Positions 8,143 to 13,314 of a stretch of DNA of 13,502 nt are shown here, one piece after another. Position 1 is the first letter of the stretch; each line of letters begins with the position of its first letter. Both the position numbers and the translations under genes were made by a program. The notes under the pieces were generated by a model that saw nothing but the letters and a program-made list of their open reading frames with translations, had not been told where the DNA came from and searched no databases. The DNA comes from a virus (taxonomy: Duplodnaviria; Heunggongvirae; Uroviricota; Caudoviricetes): positions 1 to 13,502 of the IMG/VR virus record IMGVR_UViG_2526164596_000007. One strand, 5' to 3'.

Positions 8143-8464
8143 GAAACCAGAACATGCACACACAAAAAAACCGCTTGCCATGCCGCAATCAGTCAGGTTA
8201 CATTTCCACTGCACCTCATAAAACGGGTGCCGGGTTTCGCAGCCTGCTGACTACACAAGCGCACAACCGCGCCAGCGGTTTTTTTGTGCGTACTGTATTG
8301 CCACGTTTTTTTCGCGTCAGAATTATGGCGGGGCGTACGGGGCCGACTTCGGTCGGGCCGGGTTCTTGTGTAGCCGGTACTGCGAACCTCGTACGTCTCG
8401 CCACCCACAGTTTCGCAGCTCTGGATGGTGAGTTTTCACAACTTACTACACAAGGGGCCACACC
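8143..8464 (+). other. GC-rich, hairpin-rich non-coding island (candidate structured RNA or regulatory element)
   Basis: No plausible ORF. Contains a 15-bp inverted repeat (8161-8175 / 8274-8288) flanking about 100 bp, a C(UUCG)G tetraloop hairpin at 8343-8356, and a short hairpin plus T7 run at 8267-8285. Confidence 0.35.
8267..8285 (+). terminator. Putative weak intrinsic terminator (ccgc-gcca-gcgg followed by T7)
   Basis: Seen in sequence. The stem is short (4-6 bp), so the call is tentative. Confidence 0.35.
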
Positions 8465-8695
8465 ATGGCAAACCGCAAACAGCACCGCGCTATCGCGGAG
8501 CGTCGTCACATCCAGACTGAAATCAACCGCAGACTTTTCCGCGCATCACGCGTCGCGCAAATCATGCACATCAATATGCTGCATGAGCGCAGCCACGCAC
8601 TATCAAACATCTATTCCGCCGCTGTTTTCAGCTATCTGGCGGATGATCTGCACGAGCTTCAACAGCTCATCCAGCAGCAAAACAAACTCCATTAA
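8465..8695 (+). CDS. Hypothetical protein (76 aa)
   Basis: SD AGGGG at 8452-8456 precedes the ATG; charged, helical-looking sequence with no cysteines, so not Ogr-like. Confidence 0.5.
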   Translation: MANRKQHRAIAERRHIQTEINRRLFRASRVAQIMHINMLHERSHALSNIYSAAVFSYLADDLHELQQLIQQQNKLH

Positions 8696-8767
8696 TTCCT
8701 GTTCCGGGCCCTTCCTGCACCTTGCGGCGGGAGGCCTTCGCACATCTGTAACCAGAGGATTGCCGCA

Positions 8768-9133
8768 ATGATTCTCGCCAACGACTTTCTTGAATACCTG
8801 CTCAACACAGAGCGTGATCTTGCCGTTCGCGTGCGTGAACGTTATGACATGTACCTGAAATCCCTGCCTGTACCGCAGCTCGCTGACGGAAAGATTGTTA
8901 TTGATGGTCGCTACATGATTGACAGCCACGAGGGAAATTACAGGCTTTACCGCATTGAAGGTGGCACCCCGTCCGTTATTGGCATTTACCAGCGCCCATC
9001 CTCTGCAATCGTCGATGTGATTGCCGACAGCATCCGCATCACACATCGCCATGCCGACACAGAAGACACCGTGCTGGAAATTCAGCGGCTGGCTACAGTC
9101 TGCCGCGACACCCTGAATGGCATGACGAAGTAA
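8768..9133 (+). CDS. Hypothetical protein (121 aa)
   Basis: SD GAGGA at 8753-8757; ends 7 bp before the replicase start. Confidence 0.55.
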   Translation: MILANDFLEYLLNTERDLAVRVRERYDMYLKSLPVPQLADGKIVIDGRYMIDSHEGNYRLYRIEGGTPSVIGIYQRPSSAIVDVIADSIRITHRHADTEDTVLEIQRLATVCRDTLNGMTK

Positions 9134-9139
9134 ATCACT

Positions 9140-12013
9140 ATGACGGCAGAGTACATCAGGGACTGGCAACAACCGCGCCACGCAGTGGGGCGTGAAGGAA
9201 CGGGGATCCCCGCTCCTGAATCCGCGCTTTCCTCCTGGCTGGATGCCTACCGGGTAGAGAACGAGCGCCGCCAGGAAATGGCTGATGCGGCGTTCTCCGC
9301 AACGCCGCTGGGCAACCTGATTAATAAAAGCCTGGACGCACAGGAAAAACAGGACAAAACCATCACACTGGCAGGAGACGCCAGAAAACAGGCACGCGGC
9401 GCGGTGGATGAAGCCATGGCCTCGCTGCGCCTGCTGCCGTCCTATCTGCGCGATCCGCTTATTCGCCACCTCTCCTTCCTGCGCAAAAAACAGGAAGCCG
9501 ATCGCCGGAAAGGCAAAAAGAGCTGGCAGGCGGAACGCTATGCACGCGGAACCCTGCGCAAAATATTCGAACGTCTGGATCGCACTGACAGACACTGGCT
9601 GACACCGGGTTACCGCTCCCTTGCTGGACGCGAACGCCTGGACGATTTGCTTTACCTGCCGCAGCTCAACAAACACCAGATACAGACGCTGGCCACCATG
9701 ACAGCGGCGATGTTCAGCAGCACCTTCGAAAAACTCTGCGATGGCTTTGGCGCGACCGATGGCGAACTGACCATGGATGTAACGCTGAAGGCGTATCAGA
9801 TGCTGGCCCGCATGGCGTTACACCTGCACATCATGCCTCCACATTATGACGCACTGACAACAGATAAAGACCGGAGGAACGAACCGGACACGGAGCTGCT
9901 GCCGGGCGCAATCCTTCGCCTGACCTGTGCGGAATGGTGGAAACGCAAACTGTGGCTGTTACGTTGCGAGTGGAGAGAAGAACAACTCCGCGCCGCCTGT
10001 CTGGTTTCCAGAAAAACATCACCCTATCTGAGCCAGGACGCGTTAAGCGAGTTTCGCGCACAGCGCGAGAAAACACGCGATTTCCTGAAAAGTTTCATGC
10101 TGGAAAACGAAGACGGGTTCACGATTGATCTCGAGACAGTGTATTACGCGGGAGTAAGTAACCCGGTTCACCGTAAGGCAGAAATGATGGCCACCATGAA
10201 GGGGCTGGAACTTCTGGCCGAAGCCCGTGGCGACAAAGCGGTGTTTCTGACTGTCACCTGCCCGTCAAAATACCACGCCACAACAGAGAACGGTCATCCG
10301 AATCCCAAATGGAACGGGGCCACCATGCGCGACTCCAGCGATTACCTGGTTAACACGTTTTTTGCGGCGGTCCGCAAAAAACTGAACCGCGACGGCCTGC
10401 GCTGGTATGGCATCCGCACGGTGGAGCCTCACCATGACGGCACCGTGCACTGGCACATGATGGTCTTTGCTCATCCGGAAGAAATCGACAGCATCGTGGC
10501 CATCACCCGCGATATTGCCATTCAGGAAGACCGCCACGAGCTGGGCAATGATATTACTCCGCGCTTTAAGGCGGAGTATGTCGACGGCTCAAAAGGCACA
10601 CCAACCAGCTACATCGCCACCTACATCGGAAAGAACCTGGACAGCCGCGCCGTGGATGGCATCGACCCGAAAACGGGCAAGCCACGCGTTGACCACGAAA
10701 CCGGAAAATCAATGGCCGAGAGTGTGGAACGCGCCATCGGCTGGGCGCGCCTTCACCGGGTCCGCCAGTTCCAGTTCTTTGGCATCCCCTCCCGTCAGGT
10801 ATGGCGTGAACTCCGCCGCCTTGCCAGCCAGATGGCACGCAACCCGGAAGGCCCACAACGGCTGAAGGATGATGCAATGGATGCGGTACTCGCTGCCGCT
10901 GATGCCGGGTGTTTTGCCACCTACATTGAGAAACAGGGCGGCGTACTTGTTCCACGCAAAGACTACCTGATTCGCACCGCCTACGACCTCGCAGATGAGC
11001 TGAACGATTACGGCGAACAGAGCGTACAGATTTACGGGATCTGGTCACCACTCATCGGGGAATCCTCCCGTGTGTGCACGCACCCGGATAACTGGAAGCT
11101 GGTAAGACGTAAACCGGAAGCGGAAGACAGCACCCGCGAAAATGGTTTTGACCTTCAGGGCGGCCCTGCCGCCCCTTGGACTCGTGGCAATAACTGTCCC
11201 CGTGTACAGGAAACGGACAACAACGGGACAGAACAGCCGGAAGAACGGCCAGCACCGTGGCCGCAGCTCCCTGACGGCGTTGAAGTGAACGAATGGATGC
11301 GCTCACTGAAACGGCACGAACGCCGGGCGCTGATGCGTTCGCTTCGTGACAAACAGGCAAAAAACAGCAGTGATGAAATGCAGAGCTGGACACAGAGCCG
11401 CAAACAGCAGCGGCCTTTGCCTGATAACCACGAATTACTCGCTAAAGAATGGCGGGAGTCTGCTGAAGCTCTCGGCCTGCATATCGGTGAACAGCAGATG
11501 CAGCACCTGTTACGGGGCGGCAGTCTGTACGTTGACGGCAGCATCATTGCACCGCAGGGATTTGAAATTGTACGCAAACCGGATACCCGACCGGACAGCC
11601 GGATCACGCAGCTCTGGCAGCGCCTGAGCCGTAACCACGGCGTAAGCAGCACGGAGATCCGCCATAACCCGGTCGCCAGCTATCTGGCACAGCTGGGGGC
11701 ATCAGACCACGAAGCCGCCGCACGCCTGGCATCCACACTTCAGCAGGACCAGAACACCATGAAAACACCCGTTACCGTGCTTTCTGACATGCTGCGCGCC
11801 ATCCGCGACGCAGAGCACGCACAGAGAATCAGTGAAACCACTGAACGCGCCCGCCGCAAAGCAGATCTGCTGCGGGGTAGCCTGACCAGTGGAAACAAAA
11901 AACAGACAGAAACGGGATTCACAAATCCCGTAAATGAGCAAAAACGCGCCGCGATATATGAAGCGCGCACAAAACAGGCAAAAACGGGATTTCAGAATCC
12001 CGTAAACGATTAA
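9140..12013 (+). CDS. HUH rolling-circle replication initiator, P2 gpA family, with an extended C-terminus
   Basis: 957 aa. HUH motif HWH at residues 437-439 (VHWHMMVF) and a paired-tyrosine motif YIATYIGK (Y491/Y495) analogous to phiX174 gpA / P2 A. Positioned as the last early gene, as in P2. Confidence 0.85.
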   Translation: MTAEYIRDWQQPRHAVGREGTGIPAPESALSSWLDAYRVENERRQEMADAAFSATPLGNLINKSLDAQEKQDKTITLAGDARKQARGAVDEAMASLRLLPSYLRDPLIRHLSFLRKKQEADRRKGKKSWQAERYARGTLRKIFERLDRTDRHWLTPGYRSLAGRERLDDLLYLPQLNKHQIQTLATMTAAMFSSTFEKLCDGFGATDGELTMDVTLKAYQMLARMALHLHIMPPHYDALTTDKDRRNEPDTELLPGAILRLTCAEWWKRKLWLLRCEWREEQLRAACLVSRKTSPYLSQDALSEFRAQREKTRDFLKSFMLENEDGFTIDLETVYYAGVSNPVHRKAEMMATMKGLELLAEARGDKAVFLTVTCPSKYHATTENGHPNPKWNGATMRDSSDYLVNTFFAAVRKKLNRDGLRWYGIRTVEPHHDGTVHWHMMVFAHPEEIDSIVAITRDIAIQEDRHELGNDITPRFKAEYVDGSKGTPTSYIATYIGKNLDSRAVDGIDPKTGKPRVDHETGKSMAESVERAIGWARLHRVRQFQFFGIPSRQVWRELRRLASQMARNPEGPQRLKDDAMDAVLAAADAGCFATYIEKQGGVLVPRKDYLIRTAYDLADELNDYGEQSVQIYGIWSPLIGESSRVCTHPDNWKLVRRKPEAEDSTRENGFDLQGGPAAPWTRGNNCPRVQETDNNGTEQPEERPAPWPQLPDGVEVNEWMRSLKRHERRALMRSLRDKQAKNSSDEMQSWTQSRKQQRPLPDNHELLAKEWRESAEALGLHIGEQQMQHLLRGGSLYVDGSIIAPQGFEIVRKPDTRPDSRITQLWQRLSRNHGVSSTEIRHNPVASYLAQLGASDHEAAARLASTLQQDQNTMKTPVTVLSDMLRAIRDAEHAQRISETTERARRKADLLRGSLTSGNKKQTETGFTNPVNEQKRAAIYEARTKQAKTGFQNPVND
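11912..12003. repeat. Two copies of the palindrome acgggatt-N4-aatcccgt, 72 bp apart, inside the 3' end of the replicase ORF and just upstream of parM; candidate parC-like centromere and ParR operator
   Basis: Seen in sequence at 11912-11931 and 11984-12003. A possible parM promoter (TTCAGA at 11990-11995, ATTAAT at 12013-12018) overlaps the second copy. Confidence 0.45.
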
Positions 12014-12037
12014 TTAATCAACATAAGGAAAAGCGAC

Positions 12038-12998
12038 ATGAAAATTTGTATCGATGACGGCTCCACCAACATCAAGCTGGCATGGACTGAGAACGGCGAA
12101 CGCCGCAACGCCATCAGCCCGAACAGCTTCAAGTCGGAATGGTCTGCGCCGTTCGGTGACACGCAGCCCGCGAACTACATGCTTGATGGCGTGCGCTATG
12201 GTTTTGATCCGGTCAGCGATCGCTTTGTCCAGACGACCGACACGCAATACCAGTACAGCGATGTGAATGTCATTGCCATTCATCACGCGCTGGTCAAATC
12301 AGGCATCACACCACAGGAAGTGGATGTGGTTGTCACCCTGCCACTGAGCGAATATTTCGACACAAACGCACAGCCGGACATGGCCAACATCAACCGCAAA
12401 AAAGCAAACGTCGTGCGCCCGGTGGCGTACCAGAACGGAAAAAGCATTCACTATCCGTAACGTACGGGTTATGCCTGAATCCATTCCGGCTGGCTTTAAG
12501 GCACTGGCTGACATGAGTCCGTTTGAATCCCTGCTGATTGTGGATTTAGGCGGAACCACGCTGGATGTGGCAAAGGTTCAGGGACAACTGGCAGGTATCA
12601 GCCAGGTGTTTTGCGATCCACACGTAGGCGTTTCCCTGATGGCCGATGCCGTACTGTCGGTGATGGCCACTAACGGTATGCGTACCAGTCACCACATCGC
12701 CAATACCATTATCGAACATCGCCATGATGAAGCCTGGCTGCGCCAGCACATCCACAATGACGCGCATTACGCCAGCCTGATGGCGGTTATTCGTGAAAAG
12801 GAAGAAACACTGAAACAACGCGTGATCCGCGCGCTGGCGGGTTTTTCGGGTTACGGGCGGGTGATGGTTGTCGGTGGCGGGGCGGAGATTGTGGCACCCG
12901 CTATCCGCGAAGCCTGCGGAGTTAATGCGACTTTCATCGCGGACGGGGTGCCACAGTTTGCTCTGGTTAATGGGCTGTACGCAATGGACAAGGAGTAA
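12038..12998 (+). pseudogene. parM: ParM/StbA-type actin-like segregation ATPase, interrupted by a +1 frameshift in an A5 run
   Basis: N-terminus MKICIDDGSTNIKLAW matches R1 ParM (MLVFIDDGSTNIKLQW) as recalled. Phosphate-2 (LLIVDLGGTTLD) and adenosine (VMVVGGGAEI) motifs are present. The frame shifts from the 12038 frame to the 12471 frame at aaaaa (12439-12443); removing one A restores a continuous ORF of about 319 aa. Confidence 0.8.
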
Positions 12999-13002
12999 AC
13001 CA

Positions 13003-13314
13003 ATGACGACACCAACCAGACGGATAAGTTTCTATCTGAAGCCCGCCGCCGTCAAGAACGAAGGCGAAGCATGCGCCTGGCTGGACAGCCTTACACCAGA
13101 AGCCCGCAAAAGTGGTCAACGTGTGGCTTTTCTGGCCGGGCTGGCACTACTGAAAATGAATCCGGCAGAGGCTTACCGACTGGCTGCATGGGCTGATTAT
13201 GAGGCGTTATCAGTGACACAAACCAGGACAGAACGCCCCGCGTCACAGCCAGTATCAGCCGCACAGATAACCAGTCAGATGGCCGGAAATATCCGGGCGT
13301 TATTTCCCGAATAA
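13003..13314 (+). CDS. parR: ParR-like centromere-binding protein (103 aa)
   Basis: SD AGGAG at 12991-12995 sits 7 nt before the ATG. The N-terminal segment (RRISFYLKP...LDSL...AFLAGLAL) and C-terminal IRALFPE resemble R1 ParR as recalled. Lies immediately downstream of parM, as in parMRC loci. Confidence 0.65.
   Translation: MTTPTRRISFYLKPAAVKNEGEACAWLDSLTPEARKSGQRVAFLAGLALLKMNPAEAYRLAAWADYEALSVTQTRTERPASQPVSAAQITSQMAGNIRALFPE

What the first reader, a model, noticed from the sequence alone, without database searches (positions are those of the whole stretch)
9140..12013. gpA-family replicase is about 200 aa longer than P2 A, with the extra length at the C-terminus
The HUH motif (HWH, residues 437-439) and the YxxxY nicking tyrosines (491/495) are at positions typical for the family, but the ORF continues to 957 aa (P2 A is 761 aa as I recall). 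The tail (about residues 650-957) is charged and Gln/Arg-rich and ends in the palindrome-encoded repeat. It may be an extra domain coupling replication to partition, or a fusion created by loss of an ancestral stop.
Basis: partly seen in the sequence, partly recalled or inferred. Interest (0 to 1): 0.4.

Follow-up and report, generated by a model that had tools for sequence, protein, structure and literature searches.

The report
Ordinary long-tailed P88-type phage replicase
This is the standard replication-initiator gene of a P88-like (P2-family) prophage found in about a quarter of complete E. coli genomes; its long C-terminal tail is normal for this lineage, and only the last 17 residues are an oddity, caused by one missing A in a run of A's.

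Summary
It is an ordinary gpA (Pfam Phage_GPA) replicase of a P88-like prophage from an E. coli DEC15B contig.

- **Normal length.** The usual form is 940 aa and sits in clusters of thousands of sequences. The tail DNA occurs in 1368 of 5426 complete E. coli genomes.
- **Window-specific part.** Only residues 936-957 are unusual. An A5 run at 11940-11944 is A6 in relatives, which shifts the frame past the usual stop and through a second palindrome.
- **Origin inside the gene.** The phage's putative replication origin lies at 11159-11201. It encodes the invariant APWTRGNNC stretch in a predicted disordered linker and has zero synonymous change.
- **Variable tail.** The part after the origin comes in length classes from 76 to 254 aa, and whole tails are swapped at the origin.
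- **Tail make-up.** The first ~115 tail residues are homologous to the P2 and Fels-2 tails. Residues 804-860 are shared with other long gpA proteins. Residues 861-905 are lineage-specific. The last ~30 codons belong to the junction with the downstream ParM/ParR cargo.
- **Palindromes.** They are DNA elements, read in different frames in different relatives.

I found no partition-coupling domain and no gene fusion. The tail's function is unknown.

The parts
9140..12013 (+). gpA-family rolling-circle replication initiator as it reads in this window (957 aa). The normal allele is 940 aa.
   Evidence: It is 97% nt-identical to phage P88 and relatives, and the exact protein is EHY06355.1 / WP_000123473.1 of E. 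coli DEC15B.
9674..10648 (+). Phage_GPA (PF05840) nuclease region, residues 179-503. It holds HWH (10448-10456) and Y491/Y495 (10610-10624).
   Evidence: H437, W438, H439, Y491 and Y495 are invariant in alignment A1 across P88, Fels-2, SW5, P2-like, K139 and HP1.
11159..11201 (.). Putative origin of replication inside the gene: hairpin GGCGGC-CCT-GCCGCC followed by CCTTGGACTCGTGGCAATAACTGTCCCC. It encodes GGPAAPWTRGNNCP (residues 674-687).
   Evidence: The same block sits in the A genes of P2-like, Fels-2, K139 and PV94. PMC3986222 states that the P2 ori lies in gene A and is nearly identical in PV94. It is the only stretch that megablast finds in distant Klebsiella and Salmonella phages. dS = 0 over these 15 codons in every comparison. 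A678-C686 are the only invariant columns of alignment A3. The hairpin arms differ but stay complementary in P2 and Fels-2.
11201..11548 (+). Proximal tail, residues 688-803, homologous to the post-origin tails of P2, Fels-2 and others. It includes a small predicted alpha/beta unit (residues ~756-816, 11405-11587).
   Evidence: tblastn alignments reach query residue 796-800 for Fels-2 and P2. Alignment A1. AlphaFold pLDDT 73-88 for residues 756-816. dN/dS 0.1-0.39.
11549..11854 (+). The real extra length relative to P2: helical extension, residues 804-905. Residues 804-860 are shared with SW5-type and other long gpA proteins; 861-905 are specific to the P88 type.
   Evidence: motif LWxRLxxNHGxxxxxIRxNPVxxY. 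dN/dS is 0.06-0.31 for residues 804-860 and up to 0.6 for 861-905. PHROG 91 matches residues 820-937 at E 2e-9.
11855..11961 (+). Last ~30 codons of the normal 940-aa ORF. This is the junction with the variable cargo region, and its sequence changes with whatever lies downstream. The usual stop TGA is at 11959-11961, out of frame in this window.
   Evidence: DNA alignment A2: the 910-aa and 916-aa variants diverge from about 11846-11870 onward and carry other cargo. Frame-variable endings appear in P0101 and the Hafnia protein.
11940..11944 (.). A5 run that is A6 in relatives. The 1-nt difference creates the 22 window-specific C-terminal residues (936-957), which replace TRRDI.
   Evidence: In 57 of the 60 sampled rows from 1,303 matching E. 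coli records, the match to the 181-nt query spans 182 nt.
11896..11937 (.). 42-nt repeat, copy 1, with palindrome ACGGGATT-CACA-AATCCCGT (11912-11931). It lies inside the gpA ORF.
   Evidence: 2 matches against 0.07 expected. Conserved as DNA in E. coli, Salmonella and Hafnia.
11968..12009 (.). 42-nt repeat, copy 2, with palindrome ACGGGATT-TCAG-AATCCCGT (11984-12003), 72 nt from copy 1. It is normally intergenic and is translated here only because of the frameshift. I read the pair as the parC/operator of the ParM/ParR cassette, which is an inference.
   Evidence: It sits immediately upstream of parM. It is absent where ParM is absent.
12038..12998 (+). parM (StbA) of the cargo cassette, split into two ORFs in this window by an indel near 12439.
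   Evidence: Pfam StbA_N and ParM C-terminal domain fall on two separate ORFs. The indel against P88 is shown.
13003..13314 (+). parR/stbB-like partition protein (PF10784).

Best explanation
The ORF is the normal replication initiator (gpA, an HUH endonuclease with two active-site tyrosines) of a P88-like (Xuanwuvirus, Peduoviridae) prophage.

**Origin inside the gene.** As in P2, the origin the protein presumably nicks lies inside its own coding sequence, here at 11159-11201. It encodes a short invariant peptide in a predicted disordered linker. That site splits the gene into two parts: a conserved catalytic body (residues 1-672) and a post-origin tail that behaves as an exchangeable module.

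**Variable tail.** Among close relatives the tail comes in length classes of about 76, 126-146, 189-193 and 229-254 aa, and whole tails are swapped by crossovers at the origin. This window carries the longest and, in E. coli, a very common class.

**Layers of the tail**
- A proximal part with a small alpha/beta unit, shared with P2 and Fels-2.
- A helical extension (residues 804-860), shared with other long gpA proteins.
- A weakly constrained long helix (residues 861-905).
- About 30 terminal codons that are simply the edge of the cargo region between gpA and the portal gene. Here that edge is a ParM/ParR cassette, and its upstream palindromic repeats overlap the end of the ORF.
- A further 17 residues that exist only because one A is missing from an A6 run. 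That is either a draft-assembly error or a slippage mutation.

**What is shown and what is inferred.** Identity, domain layout, the conserved origin block, mosaicism, selection and the frameshift are shown. That the conserved block is the functional origin rests on its match to the P2 region, which PMC3986222 places in gene A; the exact P2 nick-site sequence is from my memory. I infer that the tail is a non-catalytic accessory module that helps the cis-acting initiator act at its origin, by binding flanking DNA, by self-association, or by recruiting a host helicase. The confidence of 0.85 is for the identification and anatomy. For the tail mechanism it is about 0.25.
For: **Identity**
- Pfam Phage_GPA at 439 bits. 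PHROG 91 'nicking at origin of replication' matches residues 3-937.
- 97% nt identity to P88 and relatives. P88 annotates a 940-aa replication endonuclease followed by ParM and a partition protein.

**Commonness**
- Clusters of 940-946 aa with 16,881, 3,025 and 707 members.
- Tail DNA in 1368 of 5426 complete E. coli genomes.

**Origin**
- Conserved DNA block shared with P2-like, Fels-2, K139 and PV94.
- dS = 0 over the origin codons, even against the Hafnia relative where dS exceeds 1 elsewhere.
- The only invariant columns of A3 are A678-C686. The linker has pLDDT below 32.

**Modularity**
- L015 has a Fels-2/186-like body (52% identity) with a 96-98% identical tail plus ParM/StbB.
- L014 has a 96-98% identical catalytic body (residues 179-672; its first 178 residues are a different N-terminal allele, 51% identical) with a 36-42% identical tail and no ParM.
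- Tail-length classes are listed.

**Selection on the tail:** dN/dS 0.1-0.3 for residues 688-860.

**Cargo junction:**, and Rousset et al. 2022 (PMC9122126), which describes the gpA-gpQ hotspot and a partition system in about a quarter of P2-like phages.

**Frameshift:**
Against: - Nothing here gives a function for the tail. There is no Pfam or NCBIfam domain, no solved relative and no significant fold match. The models are of moderate confidence only (pLDDT 62 and 69).
- The nick site itself was not mapped. The identification of the origin rests on sequence conservation and on P2 literature that I could not read directly.
- About 94% of tail copies in E. coli are followed by the ParM junction (1441 of 1528 places), so some functional link between tail and cassette cannot be fully excluded.
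- I cannot decide whether the A5 run is a sequencing error or a real mutation.
Confidence: 0.85

Rival explanations
1. The long tail is a dedicated domain that couples replication to the ParM/ParR partition system, for example by binding ParR or the palindromic centromere.
For: The tail is usually followed by the ParM junction: 1441 of 1528 places in complete E. coli genomes. In L015 the tail and the ParM/StbB cassette appear to have moved together into a Fels-2/186-like phage. The ORF physically overlaps the first palindrome.
Against: The 910-aa and 916-aa variants keep the same tail up to about residue 905 (91-96% identity) but carry unrelated cargo and no palindromes. Homologous tail pieces occur in SW5 and P0047, which have no ParM downstream, and in further long gpA proteins whose neighbourhoods I did not read. 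The palindrome-encoded residues are read in different frames in the Hafnia protein, P0101, the E. coli majority and this window, so they are not a conserved peptide.
Confidence: 0.07
2. The whole extra tail is a fusion, real or artefactual, of gpA with a formerly separate downstream gene after loss of a stop codon.
For: The last 17 residues really do arise that way. Frameshifts in A-runs recur at this 3' end: P0101, L015 with run0 of A5, and a RefSeq gene flagged 'frameshifted' in L016.
Against: The 940-aa ORF is continuous in thousands of independent assemblies, including complete genomes and isolated phages. The eight distant tail homologues I read among 1.84 billion representatives all look like gpA C-termini, and the remaining hits look like fragments of this same gpA; none looks like a separate family. 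Residues 688-803 align with the tails of P2, Fels-2 and SW5. dN/dS across residues 688-860 is 0.1-0.3.
Confidence: 0.03
3. The distal tail (about residues 861-940) is kept mainly because its DNA matters: sequence flanking the origin, and the operator or centromere of the cargo cassette. The peptide it encodes would be largely incidental read-through.
For: dN/dS rises to about 0.6 for residues 861-905. Residues 906-940 change with the cargo and are read in several frames. AlphaFold gives only a long, low-confidence helix and disorder there. The palindromes are conserved as DNA.
Against: Residues 861-905 are still 93-98% identical among E. coli variants that carry different cargo, and no stop-truncated variants ending near residue 860 were seen in the P88 tail class. 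I found no DNA motif or repeat in 11720-11855.
Confidence: 0.15

Closest known systems
Phage P88 (Xuanwuvirus P88) replication endonuclease, YP_009113059.1, 940 aa
   Same: 97% nt and 96% aa identity over the whole gene. Same upstream genes, and the same ParM plus partition-protein cassette downstream.
   Different: The window has A5 instead of A6 at 11940-11944, which gives 22 different terminal residues and 17 extra ones. Its parM is also frameshifted.
Phage P2 A protein (about 761-763 aa), the characterised rolling-circle initiator whose origin lies inside its own gene
   Same: Same Pfam family. HUH and YxxxY motifs are invariant. There is a conserved origin block (hairpin plus ...CAATAACTGT) inside the gene, and a homologous proximal tail with the LxRGxS unit.
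   Different: About 31% identity. The window has about 58 more residues before the origin, mainly in the N-terminal region, and a 271-aa post-origin tail against 135 aa. Residues 804-957 have no counterpart in P2.
Long-tailed gpA proteins of other lineages: Salmonella phage SW5 (878 aa), P0146 (841 aa), Fels-2 (809 aa)
   Same: They show that the family has a range of tail lengths. SW5 and P0146 share the residue 804-860 sub-domain (motif LWxRLxxNHGxxxxxIRxDPVGxY). Fels-2 has an identical origin peptide, APWTRGNNCP.
   Different: They lack residues 861-940 of the P88 type. SW5 and Fels-2 also lack the ParM/ParR cassette downstream; P0146's neighbourhood was not examined.
gpA-gpQ cargo hotspot of P2-like prophages (Rousset et al. 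2022, PMC9122126)
   Same: The ParM/ParR cassette sits exactly in this hotspot. That paper reports a putative partition system in about a quarter of E. coli P2-like phages.
   Different: Here the left border of the hotspot lies about 30 codons inside the gpA ORF rather than after its stop. I did not check whether the paper mentions this detail.

Membership tests
P2 gpA-type rolling-circle initiator (Pfam PF05840, Phage_GPA) | Significant match to the family profile | tested here: met
   439.3 bits against a gathering cut-off of 31.4, residues 179-503. PHROG 91 at E 6e-275.
P2 gpA-type rolling-circle initiator (Pfam PF05840, Phage_GPA) | HUH metal-binding motif | tested here: met
   HWH at residues 437-439, invariant in A1.
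P2 gpA-type rolling-circle initiator (Pfam PF05840, Phage_GPA) | Two active-site tyrosines, YxxxY | tested here: met
   Y491 and Y495, invariant in A1. PMC3986222 cites both tyrosines as part of the P2 A active site.
P2 gpA-type rolling-circle initiator (Pfam PF05840, Phage_GPA) | Origin or nick site located inside the initiator's own coding sequence | tested here: met
   Met by sequence only. A conserved block at 11159-11201 is shared with P2-like, K139 and PV94, with dS = 0. The location of the P2 ori in gene A comes from PMC3986222. The nick itself is not mapped.
P2 gpA-type rolling-circle initiator (Pfam PF05840, Phage_GPA) | Site-specific nicking with covalent attachment, and action in cis | not testable with these tools
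   Needs biochemistry and genetics.
Type II (ParMRC, R1-like) partition cassette downstream | Actin-like ParM ATPase | tested here: met
   StbA_N at 7e-70 and the ParM C-terminal domain at 3e-69, but on two ORFs because of a frameshift near 12439.
Type II (ParMRC, R1-like) partition cassette downstream | ParR/StbB adaptor protein | tested here: met
   PF10784 Plasmid_stab_B at 9e-24 for 13003-13311.
Type II (ParMRC, R1-like) partition cassette downstream | parC centromere of repeats upstream of parM | tested here: inconclusive
   Two 42-nt repeats with GGGATT-N4-AATCCC palindromes, 72 nt apart and conserved as DNA. They are unlike the ~10-nt iterons upstream of a plasmid parM, and ParR binding is untested.
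Gene fusion by loss of a stop codon | Relatives have a stop where this ORF reads on, and the extension corresponds to sequence that is otherwise non-coding or separately coding | tested here: met
   Met only for residues 936-957. Not met for residues 650-935, which are a continuous ORF in all relatives with no stand-alone homologues.

The most novel reading that the evidence does not exclude
The origin embedded in a disordered linker may act as a fixed recombination joint. Through it, P2-family phages would exchange 'post-origin tail plus cargo' units as one piece. The tail would then be a portable specificity or regulatory module for the initiator. The overlap of the gpA 3' end with the ParR-type palindromes could let transcription or translation of gpA modulate expression of the partition cassette, or centromere occupancy. 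That would be a DNA-level link between replication and partition rather than a protein-level one.
Probability: 0.1. Interest if true: 0.4.

Novelty: already known. Interest (0 to 1): 0.13.

Why it matters
It matters little beyond good annotation.

- **Annotation.** The 957-aa length should not be propagated as a new replicase variant; the normal protein is 940 aa. The split parM in the same contig warns that this draft contig carries indels.
- **Gene architecture.** gpA is built around its own origin. The catalytic body is conserved, the origin is encoded in a predicted disordered linker under DNA-level constraint, and the post-origin tail is freely exchanged and merges into the known gpA-gpQ cargo hotspot. 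This explains why gpA lengths in the phage records read here range from 763 to 940 aa (about 690 for phage 186, from memory). It also gives a sequence landmark, APWTRGNNC and its DNA, for locating origins and recombination joints in P2-like prophages.

Tried and rejected
**Domain and structure searches on the tail**
- Pfam, NCBIfam and PHROG searches gave no named domain. The only matches were the gpA PHROGs 91 and 6857.
- A PDB sequence search found nothing.
- AlphaFold models of the full protein (pLDDT 62) and of the tail (pLDDT 69) were made.
- afdb50 was unavailable.

**Looking for the tail elsewhere**
- An exhaustive HMMER scan of 1.84 billion representatives gave only 25 hits. The eight distant ones I read all look like gpA C-termini; the rest look like fragments of this gpA.
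- A word-indexed search with the tail returned only 15, mostly partial, gpA entries.

**Literature and other checks**
- I tried to read Liu & Haggård-Ljungquist 1994 for the P2 nick site. It is not held, and a literal sequence search of the literature found nothing relevant.
- I looked for the cassette's palindromes upstream of plasmid parM genes. Similarity to plasmids starts only inside parM (~66% nt), and the plasmid upstream region has different iterons.
- The promoter scan found no sigma-70-like site between the palindromes.

**Rejected readings**
- The palindromes as plus-strand terminators of gpA: the terminator-like calls are on the minus strand only, and the elements go with the cargo.
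- Hidden overlapping genes in the tail: I saw only unremarkable antisense ORFs and did not pursue them.
Full report
**1. The observation**

The window holds a single long ORF at 9140..12013 (+) of 957 codons. HWH is at residues 437-439 and YIATY at 491-495. Pfam Phage_GPA (PF05840) matches residues 179-503 at 439 bits against a cut-off of 31.4.

The composition claim holds only in part:
- The segment 650-957 is no more charged than the rest, 28.9% against 28.5%.
- Arg is barely higher, 10.4% against 9.2%.
- Only Gln is about twofold enriched, 7.8% against 3.7%.

**2. What and where it is**

The gene is 97% identical at the DNA level to the replication gene of phage P88 and other Xuanwuvirus (Peduoviridae) phages and prophages. 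The exact 957-aa protein is EHY06355.1 / WP_000123473.1 from a 13,502-nt contig of E. coli DEC15B. It is on record from that one contig only.

In P88 the gene is annotated as a 940-aa replication endonuclease, followed by ParM and a partition protein. In the large protein collection the long form is very common. Clusters of 940-946 aa hold 16,881, 3,025 and 707 member sequences. DNA of the tail (11540-11860) is present in 1368 of 5426 complete E. coli genomes.

**3. The last 17 residues come from a frameshift**

Relatives end ...TGFTNPVNEQKTRRDI*. The window has AAAAA at 11940-11944 where P88, two complete E. coli chromosomes and a Fels-2-like relative have AAAAAA. The Salmonella relative also keeps the frame but reads AAAAAG at the same place.

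In a sample of 60 rows from 1,303 matching E. coli records, 57 matches to the 181-nt query 11880-12060 span 182 nt. The missing A replaces TRRDI* with 22 other residues (936-957). It also carries translation through the second copy of a palindromic repeat that is normally intergenic.

A second indel, near 12439, splits the adjacent parM into two ORFs. I cannot tell whether these are draft-assembly errors or real mutations. Frame changes in the A-runs at this 3' end do recur elsewhere: P0101 and L015, and a RefSeq gene flagged 'frameshifted'.

**4. Where the extra length really lies**

Lengths in the family vary:

| Protein | Length (aa) | Source |
|---|---|---|
| P2-like | 763 | |
| HP1 | 775 | |
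| K139 | 800 | |
| Fels-2 | 809 | |
| SW5 | 878 | |
| P88 | 940 | |

The PHROG 91 profile is itself 852 positions long and matches residues 3-937.

In alignment A1 the window exceeds the P2-like protein mainly in two places. One is an N-terminal stretch, about residues 35-95. The other follows the motif LLRGGSLYVDGSII and runs from about residue 804 onward. P2 and Fels-2 align up to query residues 796-800 and SW5 up to 856. So the extra tail starts near residue 804, not 650.

**5. The origin of replication lies inside the gene and organises it**

Shared 11-mers between the P2-like A gene and the distant Vibrio phage genes (PV94, K139) pick out one block...CTGTCAATAACTGT. PMC3986222 states that the P2 ori lies in gene A and is nearly identical in PV94. 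From memory, the P2 nick-site oligonucleotide contains GCGCCTCGGAGTCCTGTCAA, which is this block in the P2-like gene.

The window has the homologous block at 11159-11201. It is a hairpin, GGCGGC-CCT-GCCGCC, followed by CCTTGGACTCGTGGCAATAACTGTCCCC. The hairpin arms differ but remain complementary in Fels-2 (GGGCGC-TT-GCGCCC) and P2 (GCGGC-ATC-GCCGC).

Several results mark this block as DNA under its own constraint:
- It is the only part of the gene that megablast finds in distant Klebsiella and Salmonella phages, at query 2017-2078.
- It shows zero synonymous change in every comparison, including Hafnia, where dS exceeds 1 elsewhere.
- It encodes the only invariant columns (A678-C686, APWTRGNNC) of a 31-sequence alignment.
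- In the AlphaFold model the peptide sits in a disordered linker, residues 660-706, with pLDDT below 32.

**6. The post-origin tail is an exchangeable module**

Among proteins that share the same origin peptide, the tail after it is 76, 126-146, 189-193 or 229-254 residues long. It is 271 only in this window. Two relatives show whole tails being swapped at the origin:
- L015 is a Fels-2/186-like phage. Its gpA body is only 52% identical to the window, but its tail is 96-98% identical and is followed by ParM/StbB.
- L014 has a 96-98% identical catalytic body (residues 179-672; its first 178 residues are a different N-terminal allele, 51% identical) with a 36-42% identical tail and no ParM.

**7. 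Anatomy of the tail**

| Residues | Description | dN/dS |
|---|---|---|
| 688-803 | Basic helices, then a small alpha/beta unit (about 756-816, pLDDT 73-88); homologous to the P2 and Fels-2 tails | 0.1-0.39 |
| 804-860 | Motif LWxRLxxNHGxxxxxIRxNPVxxY; recurs in SW5 and in long gpA proteins of other bacteria | 0.06-0.31 |
| 861-905 | Long helix of modest confidence, specific to the P88 type | up to 0.6 |
| 906-940 | Changes with whatever lies downstream | not meaningful |

For the last segment, the 910-aa and 916-aa variants diverge from about 11846-11870 onward. They lack the palindromes and are followed by other cargo, for example AAA plus peptidase S8 genes, instead of ParM. This is the left edge of the gpA-gpQ cargo hotspot described by Rousset et al. 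2022. That paper reports a putative partition system there in about a quarter of E. coli P2-like phages (PMC9122126).

An exhaustive HMMER scan with the tail found only 25 hits among 1.84 billion cluster representatives. The eight distant ones I read in full all look like gpA C-termini: five carry the origin peptide and three are short pieces with the tail motif only. The closer hits look like fragments of this same gpA. I saw no free-standing homologue.

**8. The palindromes are DNA elements**

Two 42-nt repeats (11896-11937 and 11968-12009) each contain ACGGGATT-N4-AATCCCGT, and they start 72 nt apart. They lie directly upstream of parM (StbA) and stbB/parR. They are conserved as DNA in E. 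coli, Salmonella and Hafnia, while indels in neighbouring A-runs put them in different reading frames.

The endings TGFTNPVNE, KQKRDS and TGFQNPVND are therefore incidental translations. I infer that the repeats are the operator or centromere of the ParM/ParR cassette. This is untested, and they do not resemble the short iterons upstream of a plasmid parM.

**9. Interpretation**

The 'loss of an ancestral stop' idea is right for 17 residues and wrong for the rest. The 'replication-partition coupling domain' idea is not supported, for three reasons:
- The tail exists with other cargo.
- Its conserved sub-domains occur in phages without ParMR.
- The palindrome-encoded peptide is not conserved as a peptide.

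About 94% of tail copies in E. coli are followed by the ParM junction (1441 of 1528 places), and L015 suggests the two can move together. I read this as linkage in one lineage rather than function, but a DNA-level interplay at the overlap is not excluded.

**10. How it most likely works**

Shown: a P2-type HUH initiator with two tyrosines, whose gene contains a conserved origin block.

Inferred from the P2 model: the protein nicks that site and primes rolling-circle replication, acting in cis.

The tail is translated and constrained but has no recognisable domain or fold. My best guess, at about 0.25, is an accessory module that binds DNA next to the origin, self-associates or recruits a host helicase. 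It works with heterologous catalytic bodies (L015), so it is functionally autonomous.

**11. Verdict**

This is an ordinary, already annotated P88-type gpA. The only window-specific feature is a 1-nt indel that lengthens the ORF by 17 codons. Interest is low. The modest points of value are the annotation correction and the picture of gpA as a gene hinged on its own origin, with an exchangeable tail that runs into the cargo hotspot.

Noticed in passing
window 12038-12998: parM (StbA-type actin-like segregation ATPase) is split into two ORFs (12038-12460 and 12471-12998) by an indel near 12439. The window reads GGAAAAAGC where relatives read GGCGAAGC or GGTGAGGC. With the A5/A6 difference 500 nt upstream, this suggests either draft-assembly errors or a decaying cassette.
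   Followed up: partly
window 11159-11201: Putative phage origin of replication inside gpA: a hairpin whose arms differ but stay complementary in P2 and Fels-2, followed by a nick-region motif. It is 100% identical to a Hafnia relative over 11144-11201 even though dS exceeds 1 elsewhere. Crossover points of mosaic gpA genes (L014, L015) fall here.
   Followed up: yes
window 11896-12009: Two 42-nt direct repeats, each with a GGGATT-N4-AATCCC palindrome, starting 72 nt apart and directly upstream of parM. They may be the centromere or operator for the StbB/ParR protein. They are unlike the ~10-nt iterons upstream of an IncL/M plasmid parM (L011 1051-1172).
   Followed up: partly
plasmid record NZ_CP148288.1 (hit H151): A 34,461-bp record filed as an E. 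coli plasmid carries the P88-type gpA 3' end plus ParM/ParR at 97% identity. It may be a P88-like phage kept or assembled as an episome, which would fit the suggestion that the partition cassette allows plasmid-like maintenance.
   Followed up: no
window 9140-9670 (gpA residues 1-178): The N-terminal ~100 residues of gpA also come in at least two alleles, about 51% identical (MTAEYIRDWQQPRHAVGREG... against MSEFAWSWNEPRPAIDPARF...), combined with near-identical catalytic bodies. This points to a second recombination joint at the 5' end of the gene.
   Followed up: partly
window 11194-11231: A 12-nt inverted repeat (CTGTCCCCGTGT / ACAACGGGACAG) lies immediately downstream of the origin core. 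It is partly kept in the Salmonella and Hafnia relatives but not in L014 or Fels-2. Significance unknown.
   Followed up: no
window 8154-8771: The 205-aa ORF two genes upstream of gpA has a borderline Pfam Phage_ASH match (26.7 bits against a cut-off of 26). The 121-aa ORF at 8768-9133, directly upstream of gpA, has no family match.
   Followed up: no
locus L016 (NZ_CP182383.1), gpA 3' end: In a complete E. coli chromosome, RefSeq flags the P88-type replication endonuclease as 'frameshifted'. This shows that frame-disrupting indels in this gene also occur in finished assemblies. I did not locate the frameshift.
   Followed up: no
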